From Candidatus Hermodarchaeota archaeon (GTDB taxonomy: Archaea > Asgardarchaeota > Hermodarchaeia > Hermodarchaeales > Hermodarchaeaceae), in the NCBI GenBank assembly GCA_016840065.1, contig JAEOTB010000066.1:1-44135 (forward strand): a stretch of DNA of 44,135 nucleotides. The letters are read 5' to 3'. Both the position numbers and the translations under genes were made by a program. Position 1 is the stretch's first letter; each line of letters opens with the position of its first letter. The notes under the pieces were generated by a model. That model saw only the letters and a program-made list of their open reading frames with translations. It was not told the origin of the DNA and did no database searches. Positions 8,183 through 38,119 of this stretch are shown here, piece by piece.

Positions 8183-11100
8183 GTGATGAACCAGAGAGCC
8201 GCTATCGCTTTCAGTATATTCTTGCTTACTAATTTTCTATCATCCGCTGTTACATACAATACGCCTTTGACTTGTCAGTTTAGCAGCAGTTTTCTGGATT
8301 CAGATGGCAGGTCTCCAGTTCAGAGAGGGGTTTCACTAGTCACCACTAAGGGGGAGCCATCAGATAGGCTGAAAACCCTGATTCACCCTAACCTTGATGA
8401 CACTCCCACCCTACCCAGCGACTTGAGCTTCAATATCACGTCCAATGAGGGCTATTTTGATGGACTCAACTTGTTCGATCCTCGCGGAGAGATTGAGTAT
8501 AAATCGGTCATCATGAATCTCGAGGGGGATATCATTGTAGAGAGGCCTTATTGGAGAATGGTGGAATTCATCAATTCGACACACGTTCTAGGTTTTTGCT
8601 CTGAACATGAAGCAGCACTTTGGAATGTTTATGAAGGAACTGAAACACGATTAGGTATCCAAGGCCACCACGAATTAGAATACAACTGGATAAATAACAC
8701 CATTCTAACCTTCAAGGCATACGTTGTCACAATCAATGAAACGCAATACAAGTATGACATGATTGAAGAATACAACCTGGAAGGGGAGCTAGTCTGGTCT
8801 CTGGATACACAGGATATCATCTCTCCCAATCAGTGGTGCCCTTTCAAGGATGGCTTCACCGAAGCTGATATCACTCATTCGAATTCAATATTCTTTGATT
8901 CAGAAGAAGACACCTTCCTATTCAACGTTAGAAACGTAAATACCTTCTACAAAGTAGACCACAAAACTGGAGAGATCCTTTGGGGTTTAGGAGAGTACGG
9001 CAACTATTCTTTATACGATTCCAATGGTAATCCCAAGGATAACCTCTTCTACCATGCTCACGCTGTCGAGCAGGTTGACGACAACACCTTCATTCTCTTT
9101 GATAACGACTATCATAACCAGACTAACCCCACCTATCCACGTTCACGCATCCTCGAAATAACCATCAACGAAACCACCATGACCGCAAACGAGTCTTGGT
9201 CATGGATTGCCCCCCAGGATTATTACTGCACCTACTTTGGCGATGCAGACCGGCTACCAAACGGAAACAGGCTAGCAGTCTTTGGGGTCCACTACGGTCC
9301 TAGGATTGTTGAGGTTTCAGAGGAAGGTGAAATCGTTTGGCAGCAGGAATTCTCCAGTGGGAATACAATCTACCGAGTGGAAAGGTTTCGCTTTGAACCA
9401 ATTCTTAGCAGCCCTCCCGATATCCACGTAAATTCCTCAGAGAACGTGAATGTTACCTGGCAGGCATTCTACAATTTCCGCCCCAAGAGAGACATAAACG
9501 GAACCTACGCCCTGTACCTAAACAACTCTGAAATCGCAACAGGCATTACCACCTACGACAAGCTCTGGCGCCCCACTAACTTAACCTTCAGTGTGGGTGT
9601 ACTAGAAGATGGACTCTACAACGTCACCCTTGCAGTAACCGATGGAGGGGGACACCAAGCCACAGATAGCCTTAACATGACCATTGGACCATTCTACATC
9701 GAGCGAGAAGGCCCAACAACTATTGAGAAAGGACAGGAGGGCGAGATGATACGATGGAGCGGGTTCACCAACAACCCTCTGTTCTACAACATCACTCTGA
9801 ACAGTACTCTGCACACATCTAATATGTGGGATGGTGAAATCATAACACTTGATCTCGACTTGCTAGAAGAAGGTAGCACTCGAGTGATATTCCGTCTCTA
9901 CAATGGAACCGAACTCGTACACACAGACGATTTCTGGGTCGACGTGGCACCTCCAATCCTACCCGTCATTACGCCCTCCCAACCAAATGATATAACGATA
10001 ACCTGGAGTGGCACACAACCCCTTTCATGGACCCTAACTGACAATTTCCCATCATCATGGAGTCTATTTCTAGAAGGAACAGAGGTGACCAGTAGTTCGT
10101 GGACTTCTCAAACATATCTCCTCAACTGGACCGTACCCCTTCTAGACGAAGGCGAATACAACATCACCGTTGTCGCTTCTGATCTTGCTGGACAAAGGAC
10201 AATCAACACCACCTGGTTAACCGTAGAGTTCCCCAGCCCGCCCATAATCCTTTTTATGTCAGGGGAAACACAATTTCTGTGGGGACAGGAGAACGCTATC
10301 CTGACATATGAGATTCATGGTGGGGTTCAATGGGCTTTGTGGAAGAACGAGGTTCAGATACGAGGGGCAGGGCTATCAGGACACCTGCTAGAGATTGAGA
10401 TAGAGAATTGGCAACCAGAAGGGTGGAGCCTGGGTATCCATAATATCACTTTGGAGGTAACAGATAGTTCCGACGCCTCGTCAACTCTCACCCTCTGGAT
10501 TCAGATAATACTATCTCCAGGTGATCCTTACGCCGATGCCTGTATTGCTTCACATTCTGATTGGTATCTTCATGGAGATAACGCTGTGGGAGCACCTGAC
10601 AATGCCTTCGCAGAGATCTTCCTGGATTACGGAAACGGCTACGTAACCCTTGATATGGGTGCGGGAGAAGAGATACTGGATGGTATTGGTGCTGACTTCT
10701 GGGTGGTGGCCCAGGGCGGCGAATACAACGTCCGGGTCAGCAACAGCCTCACCACCGCCTTCATCACTATTGGCACAGGTCAAGGTTCCCAAGAATACAA
10801 CCTAACCGGGACAGGATTAATCGCCGCACGTTATGTAAGAATCACCTACCTAGACGGTGCAGATGTTGAAGTTGATGCCATCGTTGCCCATAACTACAAT
10901 CAAGCAGGAGGCGACACGGAAGCCCCCCTCATTACAGGGCTGGAGGACTTCTGGGTTCTAGAAACGCAGACAACAACCTCTTTCATCTGGGAAACCTATG
11001 ATGCAAACCCCTGGAATTACAGCTTGTACGTCAATGGTAGCCTATACGAAACTGGTCCATGGAATGGCTCAGACATAACCCTCACTCTCGAAATCACTAT

Positions 11101-11581
11101 GACAGGGGCTTGGCAGAAACAAAATGTGACACTAGCTCTCTTCGATGTTTGTGGCCAGCAGAATCAGGATTCAGTCTTGGTTGACATTCTCCCCATCGAT
11201 AACGACAATCCACAGATTTTCGGTCCAGATGACTTCTGGATCCTTGAGACGCAACCAACCTTCTCTTGGATCTGGACGGGCCAGGATTTAACACCAAGCA
11301 ACTACTCCATCTTCGTTGACGGGATCTTCTATGAGGCTGGTTTGTGGGACGGGTCAGATATTCCCTTCAGTTACAATGTGAGCCGGATAGGACTCCTGAC
11401 AATCACTCTCACTCTCTGTGATTTCTTCGGTCACCAGACAGTTGACACGGTTCTGGTTGAAGTCCGATCGCTTCTCAGCGGACCAGCTGACCCAATCCTA
11501 AAACTAGCCTTGACTGTATTCGTTCTGGGTACCTTTCCTGTTCTATCAACGCTCCTCTACCTGACTCGCCGCCGCAAGTGA
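8183..11581 (+). CDS. Membrane-anchored aryl-sulfate sulfotransferase (ASST)-family surface protein with Ig-like repeats and a jelly-roll-like domain
   Basis: Signal peptide; GHHEL, THSNSI, YHAHAV, ILFDN and GDADRLPNGN ASST propeller motifs; repeated Ig-like units (W...D..P..Y.....G....G.W.G; G.YN.TL...D..G); C-terminal TM followed by RRRK. Confidence 0.8.
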   Translation: MMNQRAAIAFSIFLLTNFLSSAVTYNTPLTCQFSSSFLDSDGRSPVQRGVSLVTTKGEPSDRLKTLIHPNLDDTPTLPSDLSFNITSNEGYFDGLNLFDPRGEIEYKSVIMNLEGDIIVERPYWRMVEFINSTHVLGFCSEHEAALWNVYEGTETRLGIQGHHELEYNWINNTILTFKAYVVTINETQYKYDMIEEYNLEGELVWSLDTQDIISPNQWCPFKDGFTEADITHSNSIFFDSEEDTFLFNVRNVNTFYKVDHKTGEILWGLGEYGNYSLYDSNGNPKDNLFYHAHAVEQVDDNTFILFDNDYHNQTNPTYPRSRILEITINETTMTANESWSWIAPQDYYCTYFGDADRLPNGNRLAVFGVHYGPRIVEVSEEGEIVWQQEFSSGNTIYRVERFRFEPILSSPPDIHVNSSENVNVTWQAFYNFRPKRDINGTYALYLNNSEIATGITTYDKLWRPTNLTFSVGVLEDGLYNVTLAVTDGGGHQATDSLNMTIGPFYIEREGPTTIEKGQEGEMIRWSGFTNNPLFYNITLNSTLHTSNMWDGEIITLDLDLLEEGSTRVIFRLYNGTELVHTDDFWVDVAPPILPVITPSQPNDITITWSGTQPLSWTLTDNFPSSWSLFLEGTEVTSSSWTSQTYLLNWTVPLLDEGEYNITVVASDLAGQRTINTTWLTVEFPSPPIILFMSGETQFLWGQENAILTYEIHGGVQWALWKNEVQIRGAGLSGHLLEIEIENWQPEGWSLGIHNITLEVTDSSDASSTLTLWIQIILSPGDPYADACIASHSDWYLHGDNAVGAPDNAFAEIFLDYGNGYVTLDMGAGEEILDGIGADFWVVAQGGEYNVRVSNSLTTAFITIGTGQGSQEYNLTGTGLIAARYVRITYLDGADVEVDAIVAHNYNQAGGDTEAPLITGLEDFWVLETQTTTSFIWETYDANPWNYSLYVNGSLYETGPWNGSDITLTLEITMTGAWQKQNVTLALFDVCGQQNQDSVLVDILPIDNDNPQIFGPDDFWILETQPTFSWIWTGQDLTPSNYSIFVDGIFYEAGLWDGSDIPFSYNVSRIGLLTITLTLCDFFGHQTVDTVLVEVRSLLSGPADPILKLALTVFVLGTFPVLSTLLYLTRRRK

Positions 11582-18032: not shown

Positions 18033-18923
18033 GTGTTGCGTGAAGAGTGGATAAAGTATCTTGAGCAACTGGAAGAGAACAGGGGATGGCCTATGATAGG
18101 CTACATCTATCCTGTCACCGACGAAGTGACAACCACACATCTTCAACAACAAGATCAAAACAAGCAAACGATGGAACAGTCACTCATCAGTGAATTGCTA
18201 CAGGAAGCCTGGCGGGTCGCCGTAGATTTCGGCTGCGGCACAGGTGCCAATTTCTTTCTCTTCGATGGTCACAGACAACGTAAGAGCCTACTCGTAGGTC
18301 TTGATCCAGATTGCGAGCGACTGGAATGGGCCAGGCAGACAGCAGACTATCAACTGATGTTTGTCCAGAGCTACACTCTCTGTGGAGGAGTAGAAATCCT
18401 AGAAAACATACCCGATAAACTCAAGGCGGATGTTGTCCTTTGCTCTCAGGTTCTTGGCCATGTCTCAGAGGAACAAACCCAGCGAATCATCAAAGGATTT
18501 CACAGAATCCTCACCAAGAAGGGTCGCTGTGGAATCGCAATTCCTATCATCGGGGAAGCATTCAAGGAAAATCCTCAAGCCGAGGATTGGTCCGGTAAGG
18601 AAGATTTCACACACCTAGTCGATATGGCAAAATCTCCTGGTGACCGTGGTTTCCGACGCCAAATAACTCTCGAAGAATTCAATAGAGCGGCTGACAAACC
18701 GGAAACAGGACTATTACCTGTCCGCTCATTCCTCGTCCCAGAGTTCCCCAATCCCTTAGAAATTAAACTTCCCTGCGAGCTGAGTGCCCCACCACCGACA
18801 ATTGCTCATTTAATTAAACCTCTCTTCGATGTTGAAAAGAGCACAATATACTCCATCCACAAGGATCCAGGCAGCCCAATATTTCCTATAGGTGATTTGT
18901 TCATCCAACTAGGGAAGAAATGA
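18033..18923 (+). CDS. Class I SAM-dependent methyltransferase
   Basis: VDFGCGTG motif I, VGLDPD, DVVLCSQVLGHV, RILTKKG. Confidence 0.88.
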   Translation: MLREEWIKYLEQLEENRGWPMIGYIYPVTDEVTTTHLQQQDQNKQTMEQSLISELLQEAWRVAVDFGCGTGANFFLFDGHRQRKSLLVGLDPDCERLEWARQTADYQLMFVQSYTLCGGVEILENIPDKLKADVVLCSQVLGHVSEEQTQRIIKGFHRILTKKGRCGIAIPIIGEAFKENPQAEDWSGKEDFTHLVDMAKSPGDRGFRRQITLEEFNRAADKPETGLLPVRSFLVPEFPNPLEIKLPCELSAPPPTIAHLIKPLFDVEKSTIYSIHKDPGSPIFPIGDLFIQLGKK

Positions 18924-19858
18924 ACTATTGGAGGATAATACAGTTGACAACGATACTTGGTGCAGTTTTACAGAATGGTAGCCCAATTGACATAACAACA
19001 ATCACAATATGGACTATAGAGCTTATCATCTTTCCAATCATCACGTTTTTCCTTGGTTGGTTCATTACAAAAATTCGTAAACTACTCAAGTTCAGAACCT
19101 TCCGCAAGGTCTTCGGACAAATCGCTGAACACCCTGAAAACATCCTCTTCTCTCTACCGCTCTGGAAAGTGAAAGCGGCGTCTAGGGACGAAACACGTTT
19201 TGAGAAGATTGGTTTTGACGAAAAGATAGAAGCCTTCTATGGACCCGACGATACAGTGGCCTTCGATGACTTAGATGCCACAGCTCAGGTCGCCTCCATC
19301 CTAGCTGAATTCTTTCCCACGCCCGTGAACTTCACTCTAGACAACGACAGGAGCCTAGAAATCACAGGAAAAACCGTAATCATGATAGGCTCTCCACTGG
19401 TCAACCTCCGAGCCCGGAGTGTCTTGGATTTAGTGGAGCAACCACACCTCGACTTTGTAGATCAGGAGGAAACCGCTGACCACCCAGCACGAACTGGAAT
19501 ACTCGACAAGAGAAGAGGGTTACTATATGATTCTTCAGGTGACTGGCAGTATTCGATGATTCTCCGAGTACCCAACTACCGCACGTCCGGAGCCTATTTC
19601 TTTCTGGTCTTCGGAGCCCACGCCGCAGGAACGCTCGCAGCTGGGATTTACTTGAAGAATAATTGGGAAGAGTTCAAGGATGCTGACCCAGCGGCTGGTG
19701 TGGTCATCGAGATGCCCAGAAGTGATATCGCGCACTATCGTGTAGTGGTCAAATACGGTTTTCCTGCAAGTGAAAAAGGTGTTGAATCCCCTGACGGGCA
19801 ACCCCTTAGCATGCCAAGTTTTCCTCCAAAGGAAAACCGGAATGCAATCACTAGATAG
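18920..19858 (+). CDS. Membrane-anchored hypothetical protein, translationally coupled to the methyltransferase
   Basis: ATGA overlap; N-terminal TM; soluble alpha/beta domain with VIMIGSPLVN and FLVFGAHAAGTLAA motifs. Confidence 0.75.
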   Translation: MNYWRIIQLTTILGAVLQNGSPIDITTITIWTIELIIFPIITFFLGWFITKIRKLLKFRTFRKVFGQIAEHPENILFSLPLWKVKAASRDETRFEKIGFDEKIEAFYGPDDTVAFDDLDATAQVASILAEFFPTPVNFTLDNDRSLEITGKTVIMIGSPLVNLRARSVLDLVEQPHLDFVDQEETADHPARTGILDKRRGLLYDSSGDWQYSMILRVPNYRTSGAYFFLVFGAHAAGTLAAGIYLKNNWEEFKDADPAAGVVIEMPRSDIAHYRVVVKYGFPASEKGVESPDGQPLSMPSFPPKENRNAITR

Positions 19859-19877
19859 TCAGCTCCTTTTCGCCCTT

Positions 19878-20066
19878 CTAAGATTCAGGGGGTTTGAATT
19901 TCATCGCACCACCGTGTGTACAGTATTCAAATCCTTCAGGGATGACTGATCCACACCTGTGATAATACGATATGGTACTCGGGGGTGGTCGAGTGAGTTC
20001 CATCTCTGGTCTGGCAGGGGTTCTTTCTGGTATAGAAGGTGTGAAAGCCTTTACCAAATATCTCAC
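19878..20066 (-). pseudogene. Short Pro-rich ORF ending in a degenerate zinc ribbon (possible remnant)
   Basis: GTG at 20066 overlaps the RING gene stop. YYHRCGSVIPEGFEYCTHGG resembles CxxCG-x7-CxxCG with 2 Cys lost. Confidence 0.4.
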
Positions 20067-21148
20067 TAAACTACATCGGATTTCCTTAATCTCCGTTGGC
20101 AGAAAGGACATACTCCCTTGACCTTTAGCCACTCTAAAAGATGGGACCTGTGAGCTAATTTCTGGCAGTGAGGGCAATTAAGATACATTTCTCCAATTTC
20201 TACGGTAGTATGACAGACAATGCACTGGCCAGGTTTCACCCCACAACCCGGGCACTTCCCTATGCGTCTTCCTTGAATGTCAAGACCGCAATCCTGGCAC
20301 TGATACACACCACGTTTACTACGAGTAACTGGTTCACTTCTCGGGCTGGAATCGCGTCGTGAACGTATCAACAAAAGTATACAAACTAGCAATATGAACA
20401 CGATTGTAACAGCATAGCCGGCTAAGAAAAGCGGATTCGAAGGAAAGGGAGTGCCTGTTACTGTTATAGTGCATGAGGCTGATCGAGAATTATCATACTC
20501 GTCAGTTACTCTTACAGTCACGCTGTGTCGGCCAACAGAGAGGGTACGTCTATTTTGGAGTCGTCCATAGTAGTTAATCGAGAAATAATAATTATTGTTG
20601 GTGATTTCCCAGTCGTCGATATCTGAAAGGTCCTCCGCTACCAGTAACTGGTTTACACTCTCACCGTATTGTATGGTTTCACTTTCAGGTGCTGTAACGA
20701 AGACTGGGGCTGTAGTATCTTGTACAGTTATTAAGAATCGTGCAGAGCAGTAATCGTTGCTTGGATTAAATGCCCTAACCTCAACGTCGTAGACACCCAC
20801 AAGTACGAGCGATATGTTTCTCACAATAGCTGTAGATGCGTCAATGGGGGTAATGCTGAACAGGCCGGAACTTATCCACCAATCATCCACTCCGTCAGGA
20901 TCAGATGCTCTCAGTTCCATACTGAAGCCAACCCCAAGCTCTACAAACTGGTCAGTGGGTTGTATAAACCATACTGGACGAAATGGGCTTCCCATCGCCA
21001 AATCAGCAGAGTTTGTACAGAAATCAATGTTTGGTTTAGTGCCTTGACCCGAGATGACGAAGTATTCAGATGTGGGATAAAGTGAAGGAAAGATAGGAAA
21101 TAGGAAACATACGATAAGTAGAAGGAATGGAATCAAACCACTACGCAA
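20066..21148 (-). CDS. Single-pass membrane protein: signal peptide, two cadherin-like Ig domains, TM, double zinc ribbon and RING finger (putative E3 ligase)
   Basis: PVWFIQPTDQ...ASDPDG and PVFVTAPE...AEDLSDI Ig units; TM LAGYAVTIVFILLVCILLLI; CQDC...CPGC; CIVC-x12-CPHC-x4-H-x2-H-LLEWLKVKGV-CPFC. Confidence 0.85.
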   Translation of the reverse strand: MRSGLIPFLLLIVCFLFPIFPSLYPTSEYFVISGQGTKPNIDFCTNSADLAMGSPFRPVWFIQPTDQFVELGVGFSMELRASDPDGVDDWWISSGLFSITPIDASTAIVRNISLVLVGVYDVEVRAFNPSNDYCSARFLITVQDTTAPVFVTAPESETIQYGESVNQLLVAEDLSDIDDWEITNNNYYFSINYYGRLQNRRTLSVGRHSVTVRVTDEYDNSRSASCTITVTGTPFPSNPLFLAGYAVTIVFILLVCILLLIRSRRDSSPRSEPVTRSKRGVYQCQDCGLDIQGRRIGKCPGCGVKPGQCIVCHTTVEIGEMYLNCPHCQKLAHRSHLLEWLKVKGVCPFCQRRLRKSDVV

Positions 21149-21330
21149 CTCAAGAACCCCATAGAAACCAGAGACACCTATTCCTTCAAGCTGTAAAAAT
21201 AAAGCTTTTTCGTTTTCAAGGAAATAAACAACTCAAAATCTTGACACATTCTGTCTAGAGAGCAGACCCAATCCAATTAACTTAAAAACAATGGCAGGAA
21301 TGTATAGATAATTCAATTGGAGGAATTTCT

Positions 21331-22179
21331 ATGAAATGTGCTAAACATACTGCCGCTGATGCAGTGGGAGTCTGCGTTTCCTGTGGAATTGGTGTCTGCA
21401 GGAGCTGTGAAATCAAAGTAGTTGGCAGAACTCACTGTAAAACATGCGTTGAAGCTGGAAGAGCCTATGACCCACAGGCTGCTCCAGTTAGAACTTACCC
21501 AACTTATGGACCAACCATTAGCCCGCCCGTAGAGGCAAAACCAACAGGAAATCCAAGCAGAGCATTCTTCATCATGGGATTCATTGGAATGATTATACTC
21601 ATGGCCAGTGGAATGATAAATTGGATCTTTGACACCACTGGATTCTTCTTCTACTGGATGTTCATGATGCCCTTTCCTGTCTATACGATTTCACTTGCCA
21701 TCTTCTGCGCTTCTATAGTCGTGACCTCCATAGCACTCTACGGTTACAGAAGGAATTATGGCTCGTTAATGGGGATAGCCACCTTCATTATCTCACTCAT
21801 CCTGCCCTGGTTCCTTCTAATCGCAAAGCTTCTCCTCTACACTGGACTTGTCTTCACACCACATACGAGCTACTATCCCCCCTATTACACCTACTATTAT
21901 CCTGGACCACTCTATATCCACTACTTTGCACTGTACATCACTGGTGCTGTATTAATCGGTGTTCTGTTCATACTATGGGGTTGTGCCCTCTTTGTAGTCC
22001 GAAAACATACAGGTAAAGCTGGATTACCTATTGCCGCAGGTATTCTATTCATAATTGCTGGTAGCTTCTGGTGCACGATAATGCTCTATCAGATTGGCTC
22101 CATTCTACTGATTCCTGCAGGAATTTTGTGGATGATATCTCTAGCCACTTCTAGGATGCCTGGCGACTTTACCTACTGA
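21331..22179 (+). CDS. B-box-type zinc finger plus ~6-TM membrane protein (paralogue 1)
   Basis: CxxH-x8-CxxC-x4-CxxC-x9-CxxC at the N-terminus, a Pro-rich linker, hydrophobic helices; GGAGG SD. Confidence 0.85.
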   Translation: MKCAKHTAADAVGVCVSCGIGVCRSCEIKVVGRTHCKTCVEAGRAYDPQAAPVRTYPTYGPTISPPVEAKPTGNPSRAFFIMGFIGMIILMASGMINWIFDTTGFFFYWMFMMPFPVYTISLAIFCASIVVTSIALYGYRRNYGSLMGIATFIISLILPWFLLIAKLLLYTGLVFTPHTSYYPPYYTYYYPGPLYIHYFALYITGAVLIGVLFILWGCALFVVRKHTGKAGLPIAAGILFIIAGSFWCTIMLYQIGSILLIPAGILWMISLATSRMPGDFTY

Positions 22180-22225
22180 GGAAAAGAATAAGGGTAAGAC
22201 AATACCAACGAGTTGAGGTGATGGC

Positions 22226-23128
22226 TTGAAGTGTAAAGAGCACAAGGTAAAGGACGCAATTGGTGTATGCATTAGTTGCGGTTCGGGTCTGTGTAAAAAA
22301 TGCCTAATTTCAGTAAAGGGTATCAGCTACTGTAAACCCTGCCTCGAAGGAGGGAGAATACGCCCTGGACCCACTCAGGGCACAAGTCATCCTCCTCCAA
22401 CTCGCACGCCACAACCGATAAGAGCTCCACGCCCAGTAAGGATTCCTCAATCCACAAGGAGGCCGATTCGCCCCCTCTTCTACCTAGGCGCCGTAGGAGT
22501 AATCCTTCTCATTTTTTCAATGATTCTCTACGTCTCCCTTCAATACGTTGCATTCCTTGAGGAAACATTCCTACCCTCAATAATTACCGCTTCGATGCTG
22601 GTTCTGATAAGCAGTGTTATTACAGGAATCGGATTCTTTGGCTACTGGTGGAACTACGGCCTTCGAACTAGCTTAGCCGCTTTCATCTGTACCCTAATAT
22701 TCAGCTGGTGGCTGCTACTGGGTGAAACCCTACTTGGAACTTATCTGGGCTATTTCCCGCTAATCATACGGGATATTGGGATCGCTGCCTTTGGTGTAAT
22801 GCTCGAGGTTTGGGCTACAGCGATAGGAGAGGTTAGCCTCTTTGATGTCAACGAGTGGCTGGCTCGGATTTGTAAGTTCTTTCTGAGTCTTACAGCCCTA
22901 CTATTCTTCTTCACATGTGTACTGGGAATAGCAAGCGATGTCCTAATCGGGCCTGGACCAATAGAATTCGCTATAATGTTTAGAGCATTCATGATTATCC
23001 TTCTGAGCGTAGGTGTAGTTTTCCTAATCCCAGGAGGCATACTTGGCATAATAATACTAGCGACGACAAAATACGGATTAGTTAGAATACAATCCGAAAC
23101 CCCCGCTACTACCAGCACTGAAGGATAA
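22226..23128 (+). CDS. B-box-type zinc finger plus multi-TM membrane protein (paralogue 2)
   Basis: CKEH...CISC...CKKC...CKPC; Pro/Arg linker; TM bundle with GIGFFGYWWNYG; GAGGTG SD before TTG. Confidence 0.85.
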   Translation: MKCKEHKVKDAIGVCISCGSGLCKKCLISVKGISYCKPCLEGGRIRPGPTQGTSHPPPTRTPQPIRAPRPVRIPQSTRRPIRPLFYLGAVGVILLIFSMILYVSLQYVAFLEETFLPSIITASMLVLISSVITGIGFFGYWWNYGLRTSLAAFICTLIFSWWLLLGETLLGTYLGYFPLIIRDIGIAAFGVMLEVWATAIGEVSLFDVNEWLARICKFFLSLTALLFFFTCVLGIASDVLIGPGPIEFAIMFRAFMIILLSVGVVFLIPGGILGIIILATTKYGLVRIQSETPATTSTEG

Positions 23129-23196
23129 GGGGTTAAATCAAAGACTTAAAAGCATAAATAGTTTAGATATGGCAGAATGGTTCCGAGGGAAACATC

Positions 23197-23979
23197 TTGA
23201 AATGTAACAAACATACAAAACGGGCTGCCGTTGCTGTGTGCGTCTCTTGCGGAGTAGGAGTCTGCAGGGACTGTGAAATCAGGGTCAGCGGCAGAAGCCA
23301 CTGTAAGCAATGCGTCGAAGAAGGAAAAGCAACTCCAACAGAACAAGTAGTACAACCCAGTGCGCCTAGGGCTCCCATGGTTACTCCAGCTGGGCAACCA
23401 AGACGCGGCTACTTCGTCTTAGGTGCAATCGGACTTGTCATTTTCATCATTGCGGCCACTTTGTCCTGGACGTTTTCTTATCTCCTTTTATTCCTCTTCC
23501 TTTGGTATAGTCCCTTCTTCTACATCATCAGTCTAGTACCGAATATACTCCTCACTGTTGGAGGTATAATGAGCGCTATCGGATTCTATGGTCAACGCCG
23601 AAACTTCGGCTCAAACATGGGCTTGGCAACATTCATTATCTCCCTAGTCTTCATCTGGTTCCAGCTCATACCTGGAATAATACGCGCCGCCCTCTACGGA
23701 GGTTACTACTATTATTATCCTTGGTATATGATATCTTATACCCTGTTCTATGTGGGTTACGCTCTCATGGGTGTAATGGTTATCCTTTGGGGGTGCTCCA
23801 TGCTAGTGAACCGTATTCAAATGGGGAATCAGGGTCTGGCGATAGCGGCTGGAGTCCTTTTCATCATCACAGGCGGGTTCATCTGCTCAATAGTTCTTGA
23901 GTGGATTGGCTTGATACTAGTCATTCCGTCTGGAATTCTGGGAATCATCCTCTTCGCTACCGTCAAGGTCCCAACATGA
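23197..23979 (+). CDS. B-box-type zinc finger plus ~6-TM membrane protein (paralogue 3)
   Basis: CNKH...CVSC...CRDC...CKQC; AIGFYGQRRNFGSNMGLATFIISL matches paralogue 1. Confidence 0.85.
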   Translation: MKCNKHTKRAAVAVCVSCGVGVCRDCEIRVSGRSHCKQCVEEGKATPTEQVVQPSAPRAPMVTPAGQPRRGYFVLGAIGLVIFIIAATLSWTFSYLLLFLFLWYSPFFYIISLVPNILLTVGGIMSAIGFYGQRRNFGSNMGLATFIISLVFIWFQLIPGIIRAALYGGYYYYYPWYMISYTLFYVGYALMGVMVILWGCSMLVNRIQMGNQGLAIAAGVLFIITGGFICSIVLEWIGLILVIPSGILGIILFATVKVPT

Positions 23980-24005
23980 GAAAAAAAGGCATTGAAAGTG
24001 GTGAG

Positions 24006-24278
24006 TTAGGGTAACTCTTTCTTCTGCAGGTTTTTCTCGCAGCGGGGACAGGTACCCTTGACCTTGAGCCACTCCAGAAGATCGACTCGATGCGCCACCC
24101 CATGGCAATGAGGGCATTTGGTCGAGTCATCCGCGGACCTAACAGCTCCCTTACAAACCATACATCGTACATGGATAGCTCCGCAGTTCCTGCACCATTC
24201 CTGTTCACCGGGGAGGACAGCCCCACACCTTGTGCAATAGGCCACAGCCCCCTTAGCAGATTCGCCCGGTTGGTTCAA
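24006..24278 (-). CDS. Small soluble zinc-ribbon plus RING-finger protein
   Basis: CTRC...CRNC, then CMVC-x12-CPHC-x4-H-x2-D-LLEWLKVKGT-CPRC. TTG start with GGAGTG SD. Confidence 0.8.
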   Translation of the reverse strand: MNQPGESAKGAVAYCTRCGAVLPGEQEWCRNCGAIHVRCMVCKGAVRSADDSTKCPHCHGVAHRVDLLEWLKVKGTCPRCEKNLQKKELP

Positions 24279-24490
24279 TTAATACACTCCAATTTGTGTA
24301 ATAAGCGAAACAACATACCTTCACCTAAAAGGCTATCGATAGAAACCCTCAATCCTGACCTGGATAGATTTACGGTGCTAATGCAGAAGAATCCTCCAGA
24401 ACATCGATATCACTGATACATTACAAGATAGACAAACATTAATCTTAAGGGAGTGGGTGCTGTTCGTAGCAGATGGAGGTTTTTGCTAGT

Positions 24491-24958
24491 ATGTCTCCGC
24501 ACAAAGAAATGGTAAAGGATGAAATCGACCAGTTCCTCACGTGTGCCCGTACAGGTCGCCTAGGAGTTATTCTCAATGACGAACCCTACATTGTTCCTGT
24601 GGGGTTTGCCTGGGTGAATGGGCAAATAGCTTTTCACGCCTGTAGCAAGGGCTTGAAGATGGATGCGTTAGAGTCCAATCCGAAGGTCTGCTTTGAGGTT
24701 GATGAATCACTCTCTGATGGCTCAATGTACAAGTCGGTACTCGTCTTCGGCAGAGCAGAAATACTAAAAGACAACGCCGAGAAAATCCCATACCTCCAAG
24801 CACTAATCAACAAATATAGGGTCCATGAGGAATTCGATGCCTACATCAACAAAGCCACCCGAAAACCGGAAGCAGAGATGAAAGCCGTCCGAATAGTCCT
24901 CATAACACCTGAAAAAATCACCAGCAGACAATTCATCAAATTCGGAAAATGGGAGTGA
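24491..24958 (+). CDS. Pyridoxamine 5'-phosphate oxidase / NimA-family flavin-binding protein
   Basis: GRLG...PYIVPVGF...FH...GLKMDALESNPKVCFEVD...YKSVLVFG. GGAGG SD before ATG at 24491. Confidence 0.9.
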   Translation: MSPHKEMVKDEIDQFLTCARTGRLGVILNDEPYIVPVGFAWVNGQIAFHACSKGLKMDALESNPKVCFEVDESLSDGSMYKSVLVFGRAEILKDNAEKIPYLQALINKYRVHEEFDAYINKATRKPEAEMKAVRIVLITPEKITSRQFIKFGKWE

Positions 24959-34748: not shown

Positions 34749-34845
34749 GGAAGGGGCTTCAGACTAGTTTAGGTTCAGAAATCGGGCTATCTCTGAAGCA
34801 TGTAACCAGAGGGTGCCACTGTCAAATTATTTGCTAGGTGTGTTC

Positions 34846-36402
34846 ATGTCTGGCTCACTAGAAACCCTGGGTAAGATGTTGTATGGAAAGTATGTGCGCA
34901 AATTCCTTTGGGGACTTGAGAACCCCCAAGAAGCACAGGAAGAATGCCTGAGACGACTCCTGACGCGGAACCAAGGCACAGTCTATGGGCGACGGCATAA
35001 ATTCAGTAAGATTAGTTCCCCTGAAGCCTACCAAGAACAGGTTCCTTTGGCCACATTTGATGATCTAAAACCATACTTTGAATCGATAAGTCAGGGCGCC
35101 GAGAACGTGATGTACCCAGATAAAACCTACTGCTTCATGATCACTAGTGGAACATCCGGCGACCAGAAGTATGTCCCCATCTCAAAATACGGACTCAAGG
35201 AATTCAGGGACATCAACAAGATAGCCATTGCCAGGATATTTACTATTGCAGATAGGCGTTATTACAATGGGCATACATTCAATTTCTCCGCACCCTATGT
35301 GCTTCCTGAATACAAATACGGGAAATACGACGTTGGGTATCTAACCGGGCTTACGTGTGCCAAGGAAACAGGGCAGGACAGCGCAATCTCATCACAAGGG
35401 AGGATGTGGCCCAGCGATGAAGTCCTCAACATGACCGATTGGGTGGAGAAGAGCTACCGCATGGCGCTCGAAATCATCCCTTTGGATATCGTAGCTGTGC
35501 ATGGTCTACCCAGTAACCTCTGCACTTTCTTCCGTAACCTAGTCGATGACATCACGCCACAATTGCTGAGTGATTCCCAGATTTCCTCCAAGATAAAAGA
35601 CCGTGTAAGGAGTTCAATGCATCGAGGGAAACTAGACTTGGGGAAACTGTGGCCAAATATGGACATAGTTGTATATGGCGGCATTCATATCGACCCCTAT
35701 CTTCCCTTCCTGGAAAGCTACTTCGCCCCAATAACACCAGTGGCGCTCTACATGGCAACCGAAGGATACATTGGTCTGGAGTGGTATCTGGGCGAAGGAT
35801 TAAGTCCCGTCCTCAATCGCACCTTTCTCGAGTTCATTCCCGCTGATGAACCTGATGCCCGACCTCACCTCGTGTCGGAGCTCAAAACAGGTAAAATCTA
35901 TTCCCCAGTCATGACAACTCCAACAGGCTTCTACCGATACGAGGTAGGCGACCACATCGTCTTTACAAAACTTGATCCCCTACTTTTCAAGATCATTGGT
36001 CGGGCGAAGACCGTAGCGAGTCTTGTGGGTGAACGGCTCCAGGAGTCGCAGCTGAATGATTCGATTATAGCAGCGTGTAAGGCAACTGGGGCAACCATTC
36101 ATTCTTTCATGGCGGTTCCAATGGTCACCCGTGAGCGAACAGCCTATGACATATTTATCGAGTTCCGAAGAGAGCCCAAAGACCTCGCTGAGTTCGAAGC
36201 ACGTTTTGACGAAGAACTACGGAAACTAAATCACAGCTACAACTATGAACGAAAAGCAGGAGTAATCCATCATGCAAGGTTCATCAAATTACCTCCCAAG
36301 ACCCTCGAGAAGATACCCTTTGAAAGAACCGGAGTAGGCGGAGCAGGGAAGATTCCCGTCATAGGGACTCCAGAGCTTGCCGAGAAACTCCGAAACCTCT
36401 AG
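34846..36402 (+). CDS. GH3-family acyl-adenylate-forming acyl-amido synthetase (1)
   Basis: Motif I TSGTSG, motif II YMATEG, motif III YRYEVGD; N-terminal RNQGTVYGRRH...VPL. Confidence 0.92.
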   Translation: MSGSLETLGKMLYGKYVRKFLWGLENPQEAQEECLRRLLTRNQGTVYGRRHKFSKISSPEAYQEQVPLATFDDLKPYFESISQGAENVMYPDKTYCFMITSGTSGDQKYVPISKYGLKEFRDINKIAIARIFTIADRRYYNGHTFNFSAPYVLPEYKYGKYDVGYLTGLTCAKETGQDSAISSQGRMWPSDEVLNMTDWVEKSYRMALEIIPLDIVAVHGLPSNLCTFFRNLVDDITPQLLSDSQISSKIKDRVRSSMHRGKLDLGKLWPNMDIVVYGGIHIDPYLPFLESYFAPITPVALYMATEGYIGLEWYLGEGLSPVLNRTFLEFIPADEPDARPHLVSELKTGKIYSPVMTTPTGFYRYEVGDHIVFTKLDPLLFKIIGRAKTVASLVGERLQESQLNDSIIAACKATGATIHSFMAVPMVTRERTAYDIFIEFRREPKDLAEFEARFDEELRKLNHSYNYERKAGVIHHARFIKLPPKTLEKIPFERTGVGGAGKIPVIGTPELAEKLRNL

Positions 36403-36459
36403 TTACTCTTGGAATATGGTATCTTGTTTCTAATTGGGTGAAACTTTTTGTAGCCGTGT

Positions 36460-36488
36460 CCATCTTGAAGTAAAGGATAACTACATAA
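36460..36488 (+). promoter_or_regulatory. Putative promoter of GH3-2: CCATCTTGAAG motif upstream of CTACATAA
   Basis: 10/11 match to the motif at 34721, with 21 vs 20 nt to the TATA-like element. Confidence 0.4.
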
Positions 36489-36559
36489 GAGAGCATCACA
36501 TTCTTGTTTCAATTCACGATACTCAATAGCGTCACAAGAGAGTCATTGTGGGATAATTC

Positions 36560-38119
36560 ATGGTCGGTCTTCTACAAATTCTTTCGAAACTTATGTATGG
36601 TCGAAAGGTGAGAAAATTCCTACGGGGGCTTCAGAGACCCCAGGAAGCACAGGAAAACTGTCTTAGCCGAATCATGAAACGGAACCAAGGCACAGTCTAC
36701 GGGCGCCGCCACAAATTCAGCAAAATCAGTTCCCCTGAAAAATACCAAGAACAGGTTCCGCTGACCACCTACGATGACTTGAAGCCTTATTACGAAGATA
36801 TTGGTCAAGGCGCAGAGAATGTCTTGTACCCTGACCCAACCTACCAGTTCATGATTACCTCCGGTACAACTGGTCGCCAGAAGTACATTCCCCTCTCATC
36901 ATATTCCCTAGAAGAAAACAGGGACATCAACATGCTGATCATGGCTAGAATCTCATCTTTCACTAAAGGGCTCCAGGGGCTTGATAGCCATATATTCAGC
37001 TTTTCTGCTCCAGCTATCATCCCTGAATACTCATACGGAAAGTACCAATGTGGTTACCTGACAGGGATTATAGGTGCCTCCGGTGCTGCCCAAGGTGGTC
37101 TTTTCTCCCGGTTGGGCAGAATCTGGCCAAGCGATGAAGTTCTTAACATGATTGACTGGAAGGAGAAAAGCTACAGACTAGCCCTTGAAATCGTACCATT
37201 GAAGATTACTACGATGATAGGATTACCCAGCAACTTATGCTCCTTCTTCCGAACCCTAGTTCAAGACATCGCGCCCAGAATGCTGGGTGACAAAGACGTA
37301 CCATCCGAAACAAAGGATAGGCTTCGTAGAGCCATGCACAGAGGAGAACTCCACATCGGGAAACTATGGCCATATATGACCTACATAATATATGGCGGAA
37401 TTCACATTGACCCCTACATGCCCTTTTTTGATAGCTATTTCAGAGGCCTTCACCCAATTTCAGTTTATCAGGCGACTGAAGGCTATCTGGGCTTTGAATG
37501 GAATTTTGGTGAAGGAATCAATCTCTCGCTAAACACAGTCTTTTTCGAGTTCATCCCCGCTGATGAACCAGAAGCGCGACCTAGGCTCATATCTGAGGTC
37601 AGAAAGGGTGTTGTCTACCGTCCGATAATAACCACCTCAGGAGGCTTCTACCGTTATGACCTTGGGGATCACATTGTCTTCACCAAACTGAATCCTCCCA
37701 CAATGAGAATTGTTGGACGAGCAGGTACTGTTGCTAGCCTCGTTGGTGAGCGACTCCAGGAGGAGCAACTAGTTAATGCGCTAAGGAGTGCCTGCACCAT
37801 GACAGGTGCAACCATCAGTGCGTTCATGGCCGTTCCAATTGTGACCTTGGAGAGAACAGCCTACGACATATACGTCGAGTTCACAGAGGAACCCAGAGAC
37901 CTTGTAAGGTTTGAAGCAGTCTTCGACGAAGAGCTCCGCAAACTTAACCACAGCTATAATTATGAGCGGAGAGCCGAAGTGATTGCTCCTGCCCGGATCA
38001 TACAGCTGACCCCTAGAACCCTTGAGAAAATTCCCTTTGCAAAACATGGGGTCGGAGGAGCGGGTAAGGTTCCAGCAATAGGAACCCCAGAACTCGTACA
38101 GCAGTTGAAGCTCCCCTAA
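36560..38119 (+). CDS. GH3-family acyl-amido synthetase (2), tandem paralogue
   Basis: TSGTTG, YQATEG, YRYDLGD; highly similar to GH3-1. Confidence 0.92.
   Translation: MVGLLQILSKLMYGRKVRKFLRGLQRPQEAQENCLSRIMKRNQGTVYGRRHKFSKISSPEKYQEQVPLTTYDDLKPYYEDIGQGAENVLYPDPTYQFMITSGTTGRQKYIPLSSYSLEENRDINMLIMARISSFTKGLQGLDSHIFSFSAPAIIPEYSYGKYQCGYLTGIIGASGAAQGGLFSRLGRIWPSDEVLNMIDWKEKSYRLALEIVPLKITTMIGLPSNLCSFFRTLVQDIAPRMLGDKDVPSETKDRLRRAMHRGELHIGKLWPYMTYIIYGGIHIDPYMPFFDSYFRGLHPISVYQATEGYLGFEWNFGEGINLSLNTVFFEFIPADEPEARPRLISEVRKGVVYRPIITTSGGFYRYDLGDHIVFTKLNPPTMRIVGRAGTVASLVGERLQEEQLVNALRSACTMTGATISAFMAVPIVTLERTAYDIYVEFTEEPRDLVRFEAVFDEELRKLNHSYNYERRAEVIAPARIIQLTPRTLEKIPFAKHGVGGAGKVPAIGTPELVQQLKLP

What the first reader, a model, noticed from the sequence alone, without database searches (positions are those of the whole stretch)
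20066..21148. Receptor-type E3 architecture: extracellular cadherin-like Ig x2, TM, cytoplasmic zinc ribbon and RING
Seen: signal peptide, two Ig units, a single TM with a basic stop-transfer, then C4-H-H-C2 RING spacing (RINGv-like) with the Trp and Pro typical of the E2-binding surface. Known: eukaryotic single-pass RING ligases such as RNF43/ZNRF3 couple an ectodomain to a cytosolic RING. Inference: an analogous transmembrane signalling or quality-control ligase in an archaeon.
Basis: partly seen in the sequence, partly recalled or inferred. Interest (0 to 1): 0.8.

Follow-up and report, generated by a model that had tools for sequence, protein, structure and literature searches.

The report
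Asgard receptor-like membrane RING ligase
An uncultured Asgard archaeon encodes a surface-exposed, single-pass membrane protein whose cytoplasmic tail carries the same kind of RING finger as the ligase of its own ubiquitin operon, so it is probably a receptor-style ubiquitin ligase, a layout I found described only for eukaryotes; no activity has been shown.

Summary
Window 20066-21148 (-) is a real 360-aa gene with these parts:
- N-terminal hydrophobic leader
- two Ig-like domains (AF2 pLDDT 97-98)
- one TM helix followed by RSRR
- a C4 zinc ribbon
- a RING finger, C309xxC312-x12-C325xxC328-x4-H333xxH336-x10-C347xxC350, with V311, W340 and P348 conserved

The finger is not RINGv-like. It is the archaeal srfp variant of RING-H2. 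It is 49% identical to the small RING of this genome's Ub-E2-E1 cluster, and its family profile hits Arkadia, RNF165 and ZNRF3.

The genome has Ub ending in GG, an E1-like gene, a UBC E2 and ESCRT-II. It holds 31 ORFs with this RING, 20 with TM segments and 8 with the leader-ectodomain-TM-RING layout. The same layout occurs in other families of the phylum.

Best reading (about 0.6): a membrane-anchored RING E3.

Caveats:
- The ectodomain is only the generic stalk of surface proteins.
- The linchpin position is Gln.
- The predicted E2 docking is on the E2 backside.
- The tail's best fold matches are the scaffolding ZnF-RING ends of GATOR2 and IFT-A.

The scan had already noted sister RING membrane proteins on other contigs of this genome.

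The parts
20066..21148 (-). Whole gene, 360 aa plus stop, TTG start: leader, Ig x2, TM, zinc ribbon, RING
   Evidence: ortholog P0003 with the same TTG start and layout; overall dN/dS about 0.29
21071..21148 (-). aa 1-26: N-terminal leader (M-R, hydrophobic core 5-23). Signal peptide or signal anchor; the cleavage site is not clear
   Evidence: Hydropathy peak 2.56; AF2 helix 6-19; conserved in P0003, whose c-region reads VNA/F
20981..21070 (-). aa 27-56: low-confidence, poorly conserved extracellular segment
   Evidence: pLDDT about 40; 30% identity to P0003
20714..20980 (-). aa 57-145: Ig-like domain 1
   Evidence: pLDDT 97-98; Foldseek tandem Ig/cadherin hits; 61% identity to P0003
20453..20713 (-). 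aa 146-232: Ig-like domain 2, entered through a QDTTAPVF linker
   Evidence: sub-threshold He_PIG, HYR, PKD and Big_9 hits; SraP cadherin-like module 4m00_A, rmsd 2.9 A over 185 columns
20363..20431 (-). aa 240-262: transmembrane helix ending in R262, followed by SRRD
   Evidence: Hydropathy 2.95; AF2 helix 239-265; 0 K/R in the 15 residues before and 5 on the cytoplasmic side from R262 onward
20234..20308 (-). aa 281-305: C4 zinc ribbon (C284, C287, C299, C302)
   Evidence: Sequence; sub-threshold DUF7129, Zn_ribbon_LapB and DZR hits; present in about half of the paralogs; pLDDT 64-82
20081..20233 (-). aa 306-356: srfp-type RING-H2 finger (C309, C312, C325, C328, H333, H336, C347, C350; V311, W340, P348; Q351 at the linchpin position)
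21331..22179 (+). Divergent neighbour: N-terminal B-box-like zinc finger plus multi-pass membrane protein. Candidate partner, linkage only
   Evidence: the same divergent pair lies on the ortholog's contig L090
22226..23979 (+). Two further B-box-like finger plus multi-pass paralogs (22226-23128, 23197-23979)
24006..24278 (-). Small soluble zinc-ribbon + RING paralog (90 aa), 27 bp from the last B-box membrane gene
   Evidence: the same adjacency occurs at own-genome C89 and at G003:C158

Best explanation
The gene encodes a type-I-like single-pass membrane protein. Two Ig-like domains sit outside the cell. A C4 zinc ribbon and an srfp-type RING-H2 finger sit in the cytoplasm. The RING most likely recruits the ubiquitin-charged UBC E2 of the genome's Ub-E2-E1-RING/ESCRT cluster to the inner face of the membrane. 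There it would promote transfer of ubiquitin to lysines of itself or of nearby membrane proteins, marking them for ESCRT-dependent sorting or for extraction and degradation. The ectodomain would set where, or with which surface proteins, this happens.

Shown here: the gene, its domain order, the RING fold and its homology, conservation of the usual E2-contact residues, the inside-facing charge bias, and a complete Ub/E1-like/E2 set in the genome.

Inferred: E3 activity, substrates, any coupling between ectodomain and RING, and the link to ESCRT.
For: 1. RING identity.
- Family profile against solved structures: Arkadia 7e-9, RNF24 3e-8, RNF165 7e-8, EL5, RNF126, RLIM, RNF38, RNF4, gp78, HRD1, ZNRF3 8.8e-5.
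- The tail model superposes on RNF165, EL5 and TRIM37 RINGs at 1.1-1.7 A over 46-56 columns.
- All top 50 rows of the exhaustive comparison are RING or U-box domains.

2. Kinship to a ligase of known type.
- 49% identity over 47 aa to the small RING of this genome's Ub operon (operon).
- Operon RINGs of this type were shown to be E3s for Caldiarchaeum subterraneum. There the residues I30, W58 and R69 mattered, and the same displaced ligand 3/4 was noted (PMC5654768).
- The same was shown for a Helarchaeia operon (bioRxiv 10.1101/2023.07.25.550441).

3. The matching residues here are V311, W340 and P348, invariant or at least 90% conserved in 23 paralogs.

4. Machinery is present: Ub ending in GG; an E2 with the HPN motif and Cys84 that resembles Ubc4/UbcH5 at 3e-28; an E1-like gene; ESCRT-II about 4 kb from the operon.

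5. Topology.

6. Purifying selection is strongest on the RING: 67% identity, pN 0.19 against pS 0.82.

7. Complex prediction of the E2 with the RING.
- Score 0.66 against a best control of 0.16. That mark was reached by 58 of 80 solved complexes and 2 of 110 mismatched pairs.
- The three runs share at least 87% of contacts, and the partner's pLDDT is at least 88.
- My own alignments were used, so the calibration counts hold only roughly.
- RING-E2 complexes are solved, so a pass can reflect likeness to known structures.
Against: - No activity data exist.
- The linchpin position after the last Cys is Gln351, also Gln in the ortholog, whereas 15 of 23 paralogs have K or R. In RNF38 the R454Q change keeps E2 binding but weakens E2~Ub binding about 12-fold and slows transfer (PMC12326332).
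- In the predicted complex the E2 residues that touch the RING are 23-24, 38-42, 106, 110, 147 and 150. This is the beta-sheet backside (S24 = UbcH5 S22), not helix 1 and loops 4 and 7, so the catalytic pose is not reproduced.
- P0001 itself is below Pfam's zf-RING_2 cut-off.
- The best whole-tail fold matches are the ZnF-RING C-terminal domains of GATOR2, the SEA complex and IFT-A, which act as scaffold junctions.
- The ectodomain has no recognisable sensing head.
- The gene is not in the Ub operon. No full-length ortholog was found in the three other species of the genus, which are about 80% complete.
Confidence: 0.6

Rival explanations
1. The zinc-ribbon + RING tail is a non-catalytic assembly module. 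As in the C-terminal domains of GATOR2, SEA and IFT-A subunits, it would pair with other ZnR-RING tails. Candidates are the soluble 90-aa paralog 3 kb away and the fingers of the neighbouring B-box membrane proteins. The result would be a membrane-associated scaffold, with no ubiquitin transfer by this protein.
For: - Foldseek's best matches for the whole tail are IFT-A WDR19 and the GATOR2 and SEA subunits (E about 1e-4, 72-100 columns). VIA's top row is GATOR2 7uhy_C, Z 7.2 over 75 residues.
- The family profile hits WDR19, WDR59 and WDR24 at 1-2e-5 across both the ribbon and the RING.
- WDR24 shares the CxxC-x4-HxxH-x3-W pattern.
- GATOR2 C-terminal domains form scaffold junctions, and the proposed E3 role of WDR24 is disputed (PMC12507694).
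- The linchpin is Gln351.
- The predicted E2 contact is not the catalytic one.
- Gene linkage to B-box finger membrane proteins and a small ZnR-RING is conserved within the genus.
Against: - The RING keeps all three classic E2-contact residues, which a purely structural RING need not keep.
- Its closest relatives by sequence are active RING-H2 ligases and the operon srfp.
- The Z scores are middling, and the tool warns that Z under 8 can reflect only a common arrangement.
- No self-association or pairing was tested.
Confidence: 0.2
2. It is primarily a cell-surface or envelope protein of the large Ig-stalk family. Its RING tail would serve as a regulatory handle on the protein itself: a substrate or adaptor that brings the E2 or ubiquitin machinery to control its own turnover, or a weakened decoy ligase. 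It would not be a ligase acting on other proteins.
For: - Residues 57-265 (Ig pair plus TM) match the membrane-proximal end of hundreds of large surface proteins with LVIVD propeller, NosD beta-helix or rhodanese heads and short tails: 619 hits at E <= 1e-10.
- The protein looks like such a stalk with a ZnR-RING cassette added.
- The cassette is attached to many different front ends in this genome.
- Gln sits at the linchpin position.
Against: - Autoubiquitination is itself E3 activity, so this differs from the best explanation mainly in the target.
- The RING is the most conserved part of the protein.
Confidence: 0.12
3. It is not a functional gene: a chance ORF or a decaying fusion, with the N-terminal leader an artefact of choosing a TTG start.
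For: - A gene caller placed the start at M52.
- The family turns over quickly, and broken copies exist elsewhere in the genome.
- The paralogous region on contig C89 has a different gene in this slot.
Against: - A full-length ortholog at 51% identity has the same TTG start and a conserved leader.
- pN is below pS in the leader, both Ig domains and the RING.
- The AF2 model is confident.
- All twelve zinc ligands are intact.
Confidence: 0.03

Closest known systems
Small RING finger protein (srfp) E3 of archaeal ubiquitin operons (Caldiarchaeum subterraneum, PMC5654768; Helarchaeia operon RING, bioRxiv 10.1101/2023.07.25.550441)
   Same: Same RING variant: ligands 3 and 4 are CxxC, four residues before HxxH. 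The hydrophobic residue after Cys1, the helix Trp and the CPxC Pro are shared. The target is 49% identical to this genome's own operon srfp. It presumably uses the same single UBC E2.
   Different: The srfp is a soluble protein of about 80 aa encoded inside the Ub operon. This protein is 360 aa, lies on another contig, has a leader, two Ig domains, a TM helix and an extra zinc ribbon, and has Gln instead of Arg at the linchpin.
Eukaryotic receptor-like transmembrane RING-H2 ligases: RNF43/ZNRF3 and the PA-TM-RING group (RNF13, RNF167/Goliath)
   Same: Signal peptide, ectodomain, one TM and a cytosolic RING-H2. The family profile hits the ZNRF3 RING at 8.8e-5 and the RNF13 RING at 5e-4.
   Different: The ectodomain is a pair of bacterial/archaeal Ig-like domains, not a protease-associated domain. 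A zinc ribbon precedes the RING. The ligand spacing is the archaeal variant. Orthology is neither shown nor likely; the resemblance is one of layout.
C-terminal ZnF + RING domains of GATOR2 (MIOS, WDR24, WDR59), the SEA complex and IFT-A (WDR19, IFT122)
   Same: A zinc ribbon directly followed by a RING with CxxC-x4-HxxH. These are the best whole-tail fold matches, and the profile E-values are about 1e-5.
   Different: Those proteins are soluble beta-propeller/alpha-solenoid scaffolds, and their RINGs mainly glue subunits together. Here the module is the tail of a membrane protein in an organism with a simple Ub cascade.
Archaeal surface proteins with a Big/cadherin-like Ig stalk and a C-terminal TM anchor
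   Same: Residues 57-265 align at 30-42% identity with the membrane-proximal end of many such proteins, which carry LVIVD propeller, NosD beta-helix or rhodanese heads.
   Different: Those proteins have large heads and cytoplasmic tails of about 5-25 residues. This one has no head and a 98-residue zinc-finger tail.

Membership tests
RING finger, RING-H2 class (Pfam zf-RING_2 PF13639) | Eight Zn ligands in cross-brace order | tested here: met
   C309, C312, C325, C328, H333, H336, C347, C350. The Cys ligands and H333 are invariant and H336 is at least 90% conserved in 23 members.
RING finger, RING-H2 class (Pfam zf-RING_2 PF13639) | Canonical RING-H2 spacing C-x-H-x2-H-x2-C at ligands 3-6 | tested here: not met
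   The spacing here is C-x2-C-x4-H-x2-H, giving ligand order C4H2C2. In the alignment to RNF126 and Arkadia the ligand-4 His column is not His. The same displacement is described for the C. subterraneum srfp.
RING finger, RING-H2 class (Pfam zf-RING_2 PF13639) | Score above the family's curated cut-off | tested here: not met
   20.4 bits for the whole protein and 23.9 for the tail alone, against a cut-off of 27.3. The operon paralog passes at 27.9, and the family profile hits solved RING-H2 domains at 7e-9.
RING finger, RING-H2 class (Pfam zf-RING_2 PF13639) | RING fold | tested here: met
   Tail model pLDDT is 83-94 over the RING. It superposes on RNF165, EL5 and TRIM37 at rmsd 1.1-1.7 A. All top 50 VIA rows are RING or U-box domains.
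Catalytic RING E3 | E2-contact residues: hydrophobic residue two after Cys1, Trp in the helix, Pro after Cys7 | tested here: met
   V311, W340 and P348. The equivalent I30 and W58 were needed for activity of the C. subterraneum srfp.
Catalytic RING E3 | Cationic linchpin (Arg/Lys) right after the last Cys | tested here: not met
   Q351 here, and Q in the ortholog; 15 of 23 paralogs have K or R. Gln at this position lowers but does not abolish RNF38 activity.
Catalytic RING E3 | Binds a cognate E2 on helix 1, loop 4 and loop 7 | tested here: inconclusive
   The complex prediction passes (0.66 against a best control of 0.16; the mark was reached by 58 of 80 solved complexes and 2 of 110 mismatched pairs). 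However, the E2 residues in contact are on the backside sheet.
Catalytic RING E3 | Stimulates Ub transfer from E2~Ub | not testable with these tools
   Needs biochemistry.
Archaeal srfp of Ub operons | Small soluble single-domain protein encoded in the Ub/E1/E2 operon | tested here: not met
   The protein is 360 aa with a leader and a TM helix, on contig C48. The operon is on C69.
Archaeal srfp of Ub operons | RING homologous to the operon RING | tested here: met
   49% identity over 47 aa, E = 8e-16.
Receptor-type TM RING ligases (RNF43/ZNRF3, PA-TM-RING) | Leader, ectodomain, single TM and cytosolic RING topology | tested here: met
   Hydropathy and positive-inside rule and the AF2 model. 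No dedicated topology predictor was available.
Receptor-type TM RING ligases (RNF43/ZNRF3, PA-TM-RING) | Protease-associated (PA) ectodomain | tested here: not met
   The ectodomain is two Ig-like sandwiches, and no PA family appears among the Pfam hits.
RINGv / RING-CH (MARCH type) | C4HC3 ligand set with C-x-C at ligands 3/4 and His about 7 residues later | tested here: not met
   Ligand 6 is His336, ligands 3/4 are C-x2-C, and the gap to His is 4 residues. RINGv is not among the Pfam hits down to E = 10.
PHD finger | C4HC3 ligand set | tested here: not met
   Ligand 6 is His, not Cys.
PHD finger | PHD fold rather than RING fold | tested here: inconclusive
   No PHD appears among the listed Foldseek or VIA rows, which are all RING or U-box.
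GATOR2/SEA/IFT-A C-terminal ZnF-RING domain | Zinc finger directly followed by a RING with CxxC-x4-HxxH | tested here: met
GATOR2/SEA/IFT-A C-terminal ZnF-RING domain | Preceded by a beta-propeller and an alpha-solenoid in a soluble coat-like protein | tested here: not met
   The module is preceded here by Ig domains and a TM helix.
Cadherin repeat | Ca-binding linker motifs (DxNDN, DxD, LDRE) and a Pfam Cadherin match | tested here: not met
   The inter-domain linker reads QDTTAPVF. There is no Cadherin hit for P0001, only sub-threshold He_PIG, HYR, PKD and Big_9. The fold is Ig/cadherin-like in the general sense only.

The most novel reading that the evidence does not exclude
Asgard archaea of this lineage run a diversified family of receptor-like transmembrane RING ligases. 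Variable ectodomains or multi-pass front ends are fused to one ZnR-RING cassette, and the family couples events at the cell surface to ubiquitin-ESCRT sorting of membrane proteins. That would be a prokaryotic forerunner of eukaryotic receptor-type RING ligases. The same srfp-type ZnR-RING cassette would also be the ancestor of the ZnF-RING C-terminal domains of protocoatomer-type complexes (GATOR2/SEA, IFT-A).
Probability: 0.25. Interest if true: 0.85.

Novelty: new variant of a known kind. Interest (0 to 1): 0.62.

Why it matters
Archaeal ubiquitin systems have been described as compact operons with one small soluble RING. One review states that archaeal components are single-domain proteins (PMC11354881).

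A family of multi-domain, membrane-anchored RING proteins in an Asgard genome would change that picture. This gene belongs to such a family: 31 RING ORFs in the genome, 20 with TM segments and 8 receptor-like. If they are ligases, E3 diversification and ubiquitin marking at the membrane began before eukaryotes. Ubiquitin marking at the membrane is the precondition for ESCRT-dependent sorting of surface proteins.

The gene also offers a short, soluble, testable tail together with its cognate E1-like protein, E2 and Ub, all from one genome.

Tried and rejected
- Word-index homolog searches found almost nothing: only the ortholog P0003 and the protein itself, and 18 mostly unnamed proteins with the tail profile.
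I therefore could not name the organism myself. 'Hermodarchaeia' comes only from earlier scan notes.
- No SSU rRNA was found in the assembly (completeness 83.9%).
- The exhaustive representative search was dominated by the Ig stalk. The RING architecture could not be surveyed from its top 150 rows.
- No full-length ortholog was found in the three congeneric genomes, which are about 80% complete.
- PADLOC and NCBIfam gave no match for the protein or its neighbours, so I did not pursue a known anti-phage defence reading.
- RINGv and PHD readings were rejected on ligand pattern and fold.
- A cadherin reading was rejected on linker motifs.
- Literature searches found no description of transmembrane or receptor-like RING proteins in Asgard archaea, and no link between GATOR2-type RINGs and archaea. 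The held library lacks most subscription papers, so this is weak evidence of absence.
Full report
**The gene.** Window 20066-21148 (-) is an open frame of 360 codons that starts at TTG. A public gene call begins at Met52 and so lacks the N-terminal hydrophobic stretch. The only ortholog I could find is P0003 (366 aa, 51% identity), from a 1.9-kb Logan contig. It also starts at TTG and conserves the leader. A codon comparison gives pN below pS in the leader (0.23 against 0.53), in both Ig domains and most strongly in the RING (0.19 against 0.82). Overall dN/dS is about 0.29. The gene and its long form are real.

**Anatomy.**
- Hydropathy shows two membrane-grade segments: residues 5-23, after Met-Arg, and residues 240-261.
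- No K/R lies in the 15 residues before the second segment. R262 ends it and four more K/R follow.
- The stretch between the segments is acidic (27 D/E against 12 K/R). The tail is basic and holds the twelve zinc-ligand residues, ten Cys and two His.
- An AlphaFold2 model built on 56 sequences has mean pLDDT 84.7. It shows two beta-sandwich domains at pLDDT 97-98 (about 57-145 and 146-232), a helix at 239-265 and a compact C-terminal finger at pLDDT 89-96.
- Foldseek matches the ectodomain to tandem Ig and cadherin modules. The best rigid fit is the cadherin-like region of SraP (4m00_A, rmsd 2.9 A over 185 columns).
- Pfam gives only sub-threshold He_PIG, HYR, PKD and Big_9 hits, and the inter-domain linker reads QDTTAPVF rather than a cadherin calcium motif.
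- So 'two Ig units' is right, and 'cadherin-like' holds only in the loose sense.

**The ectodomain is a generic stalk.** An exhaustive search found 619 proteins at E <= 1e-10. The best of them are large surface proteins in which the same Ig pair sits just before a C-terminal TM anchor and a very short tail. Their heads are LVIVD propellers, NosD beta-helices or rhodanese domains. The protein therefore has no recognisable ligand-binding head. It looks like a surface-protein stalk and anchor to which a zinc-finger tail was added.

**The tail.**
- The zinc ribbon uses C284, C287, C299 and C302.
- The RING reads C309xxC312-x12-C325xxC328-x4-H333xxH336-x10-C347xxC350.
- In an alignment of 23 family members the Cys ligands, H333, W340 and P348 are invariant. 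V311 and H336 are at least 90% conserved.
- Aligned to RNF126 or Arkadia, the usual ligand-4 His is missing, and a Cys three residues upstream of ligand 3 takes its place.
- This is the peculiarity described for the small RING finger protein (srfp) of Caldiarchaeum subterraneum, which was shown to act as an E3 with its E1 and E2 (PMC5654768).
- P0001 itself stays under Pfam's zf-RING_2 cut-off.
- A profile of the family hits solved RING-H2 ligase domains from 7e-9 (Arkadia) to 8.8e-5 (ZNRF3).

**Fold of the tail.**
- A separate model of the tail superposes on RNF165, EL5 and TRIM37 RINGs at 1.1-1.7 A.
- In an exhaustive comparison with 48,161 chains, all top 50 rows are RING or U-box domains. 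No PHD finger appears.
- The best matches for the ribbon and RING together are the C-terminal ZnF-RING domains of IFT-A WDR19 and of GATOR2 and SEA subunits.
- The profile reaches these at about 1e-5, and WDR24 shares the CxxC-x4-HxxH-x3-W pattern.

**The host and its ubiquitin system.** The assembly has 2.59 Mb in 131 contigs and is 83.9% complete. One cluster on contig C69 holds:
- an E1-like ThiF protein with a Ub-like tail
- a UBC E2
- a ubiquitin that ends in GG
- an 81-aa RING
- a second E2/UEV-like gene
- ESCRT-II, about 4 kb from the operon

UQ_con and ESCRT-II are absent from all 14 control prokaryotes. The E2 keeps the HPN motif and the catalytic Cys and resembles Ubc4/UbcH5 at 3e-28. 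This is the Asgard-type Ub-ESCRT arrangement. A preprint reports the UEV-Vps23/Ub/RING cluster for Hermod-, Odin- and other Asgard classes, and shows E3 activity for a Helarchaeia operon RING. I could not name the organism myself. The target RING is 49% identical to the operon RING.

**A family, not a one-off.**
- An HMM of the module finds 31 ORFs in this genome.
- 20 of them have at least one predicted TM segment before the RING, and 8 have the leader, ectodomain (>100 aa), TM, RING layout.
- The module is found in 28 of 31 related genomes. Counts are 10-35 in this genus, 3-7 in the sister genus and 29 in one closed genome of another family.
- Among twenty long RING ORFs fetched from relatives, six more have the receptor-like layout, in three genera of two families.
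- In 29 of 32 TM-bearing members the RING side of the last TM carries more K/R than the other side, so an inside-facing RING is a family rule.
- No full-length ortholog of this particular gene was found in the three congeneric genomes. The cassette is evidently shuffled onto different front ends.

**Test of E2 binding.** A complex prediction of the E2 with the RING passed.
- The score was 0.66 against a best control of 0.16. That mark was reached by 58 of 80 solved complexes and 2 of 110 mismatched pairs.
- The three runs share at least 87% of contacts, and the partner's pLDDT is at least 88.
- My own alignments were used, so the counts hold only roughly. RING-E2 complexes are solved, so a pass may reflect likeness.
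- On the RING side the contacts are the expected loop and helix (V311-T314, R334-K344).
- On the E2 side they are residues 23-24, 38-42, 106, 110, 147 and 150. By alignment to Ubc4/UbcH5 and my own residue mapping, this is the beta-sheet backside around the equivalent of UbcH5 Ser22. It is not helix 1, loop 4 or loop 7.
- I therefore count this as support for some affinity, not as a reproduction of the catalytic pose.
- The linchpin position is Gln351. In RNF38 the Arg-to-Gln change leaves E2 binding intact but weakens E2~Ub binding about 12-fold and slows transfer (PMC12326332).

**Context.**
- The gene is transcribed divergently from the first of three paralogous genes (21331-23979). Each encodes an N-terminal B-box-like zinc finger followed by a multi-pass membrane domain.
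- A 90-aa soluble ZnR-RING paralog follows at 24006-24278.
- The ortholog's contig keeps the same divergent pair.
- Contig C89 of the same assembly is a paralogous copy of window 18033-24958 at 57-80% protein identity. It has the three B-box membrane genes and the small RING, but a different 190-aa zinc-ribbon membrane ORF in the slot of the target.
- In G003 a small RING again abuts a B-box membrane gene. In the sister genus the two families are not on the same contigs.
- The linkage is thus conserved within the genus only. It suggests a partnership but does not show one.

**Verdict.**
- The most likely function is a membrane-anchored RING E3 of receptor-like layout (about 0.6).
- The main rival is a GATOR2-like, non-catalytic assembly role for the ZnR-RING tail (about 0.2).
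- In the literature I could search, archaeal RING ligases are small operon proteins, and I found no description of transmembrane RING proteins in Asgard archaea.
- Earlier notes of this scan had already flagged sister proteins on other contigs of the same genome.
- I rate it a new variant of a known kind.

Noticed in passing
window 21331-22179, 22226-23128, 23197-23979 (+): Three tandem paralogs with an N-terminal B-box-like zinc finger (MKCxKH...CxSCG...C..C...HC..C), a Pro-rich linker and a multi-pass membrane domain. No Pfam family passes its cut-off (weak DUF2180 and ANCHR-like B-box hits). The own genome holds about a dozen relatives. The family was found in two genera of the window's family and in none of the other families searched.
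   Followed up: partly
own genome contig C89:6775-12704, compared with window 18033-24958: A paralogous copy of the whole neighbourhood at 57-80% protein identity: methyltransferase, TM protein, three B-box membrane genes, small ZnR-RING and PNPOx-like gene. The slot of the target holds an unrelated 190-aa zinc-ribbon + TM ORF (C89:10292-10864). This could be an old segmental duplication or a second strain in the bin (contamination 5%).
   Followed up: partly
window 24006-24278 (-); C89:6775-7059; G003:C158:1097-1351: A small soluble zinc-ribbon + RING protein lies close to, and convergent with, a B-box membrane gene in three places (26-27 bp away in the own genome, about 160 bp in G003). In the two own-genome copies the sixth RING ligand is Asp instead of His.
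   Followed up: partly
own genome, e.g. C25:25698-28487, C5:23256-25307, C21:941-3001, C62:950-2920, C131:4692-5765, C5:2459-3499, C5:764-2362: Seven further ORFs with the leader, large ectodomain, TM, RING layout. There are also multi-pass RING proteins (C113, C106, C73, C101) and two-RING proteins with RanBP2-like fingers (C30). In total the 2.6-Mb assembly holds 31 RING ORFs.
   Followed up: partly
P0001 aa 281-356, compared with PDB 7uhy, 8bbg, 8adl: The archaeal ZnR + srfp-type RING module resembles the C-terminal ZnF-RING domains of GATOR2, SEA and IFT-A in fold, profile score and the CxxC-x4-HxxH ligand pattern. I found no paper linking these domains to archaea.
   Followed up: partly
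own genome C69:42608-48461: Ub-ESCRT cluster: E1-like protein with a Ub-like C-terminus, UBC E2, Ub ending directly in GG (no pro-peptide), 81-aa RING, a second E2/UEV-like gene on the other strand, and ESCRT-II. An actin-family gene lies at C69:26773-27756.
   Followed up: partly
E2 (C69:43579-44037) with P0001 aa 304-360: The complex prediction docks the RING's usual E2-binding face onto the E2 backside sheet (S24, F38-T42) instead of helix 1 and loops 4 and 7. Whether this is real or an artefact is unexplained.
   Followed up: no
window 20066-21148: The public gene call starts at Met52 and hides the leader. TTG starts may cause systematic loss of signal peptides in annotations of this lineage; the ortholog's gene also starts at TTG.
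   Followed up: partly
window 34813-38119 and 8183-11581: Two adjacent GH3-family (acyl-acid amido synthetase-like) genes, and a 1132-aa arylsulfotransferase-like protein with Ig-like repeats. Both are unusual for an archaeon and were not examined.
   Followed up: no
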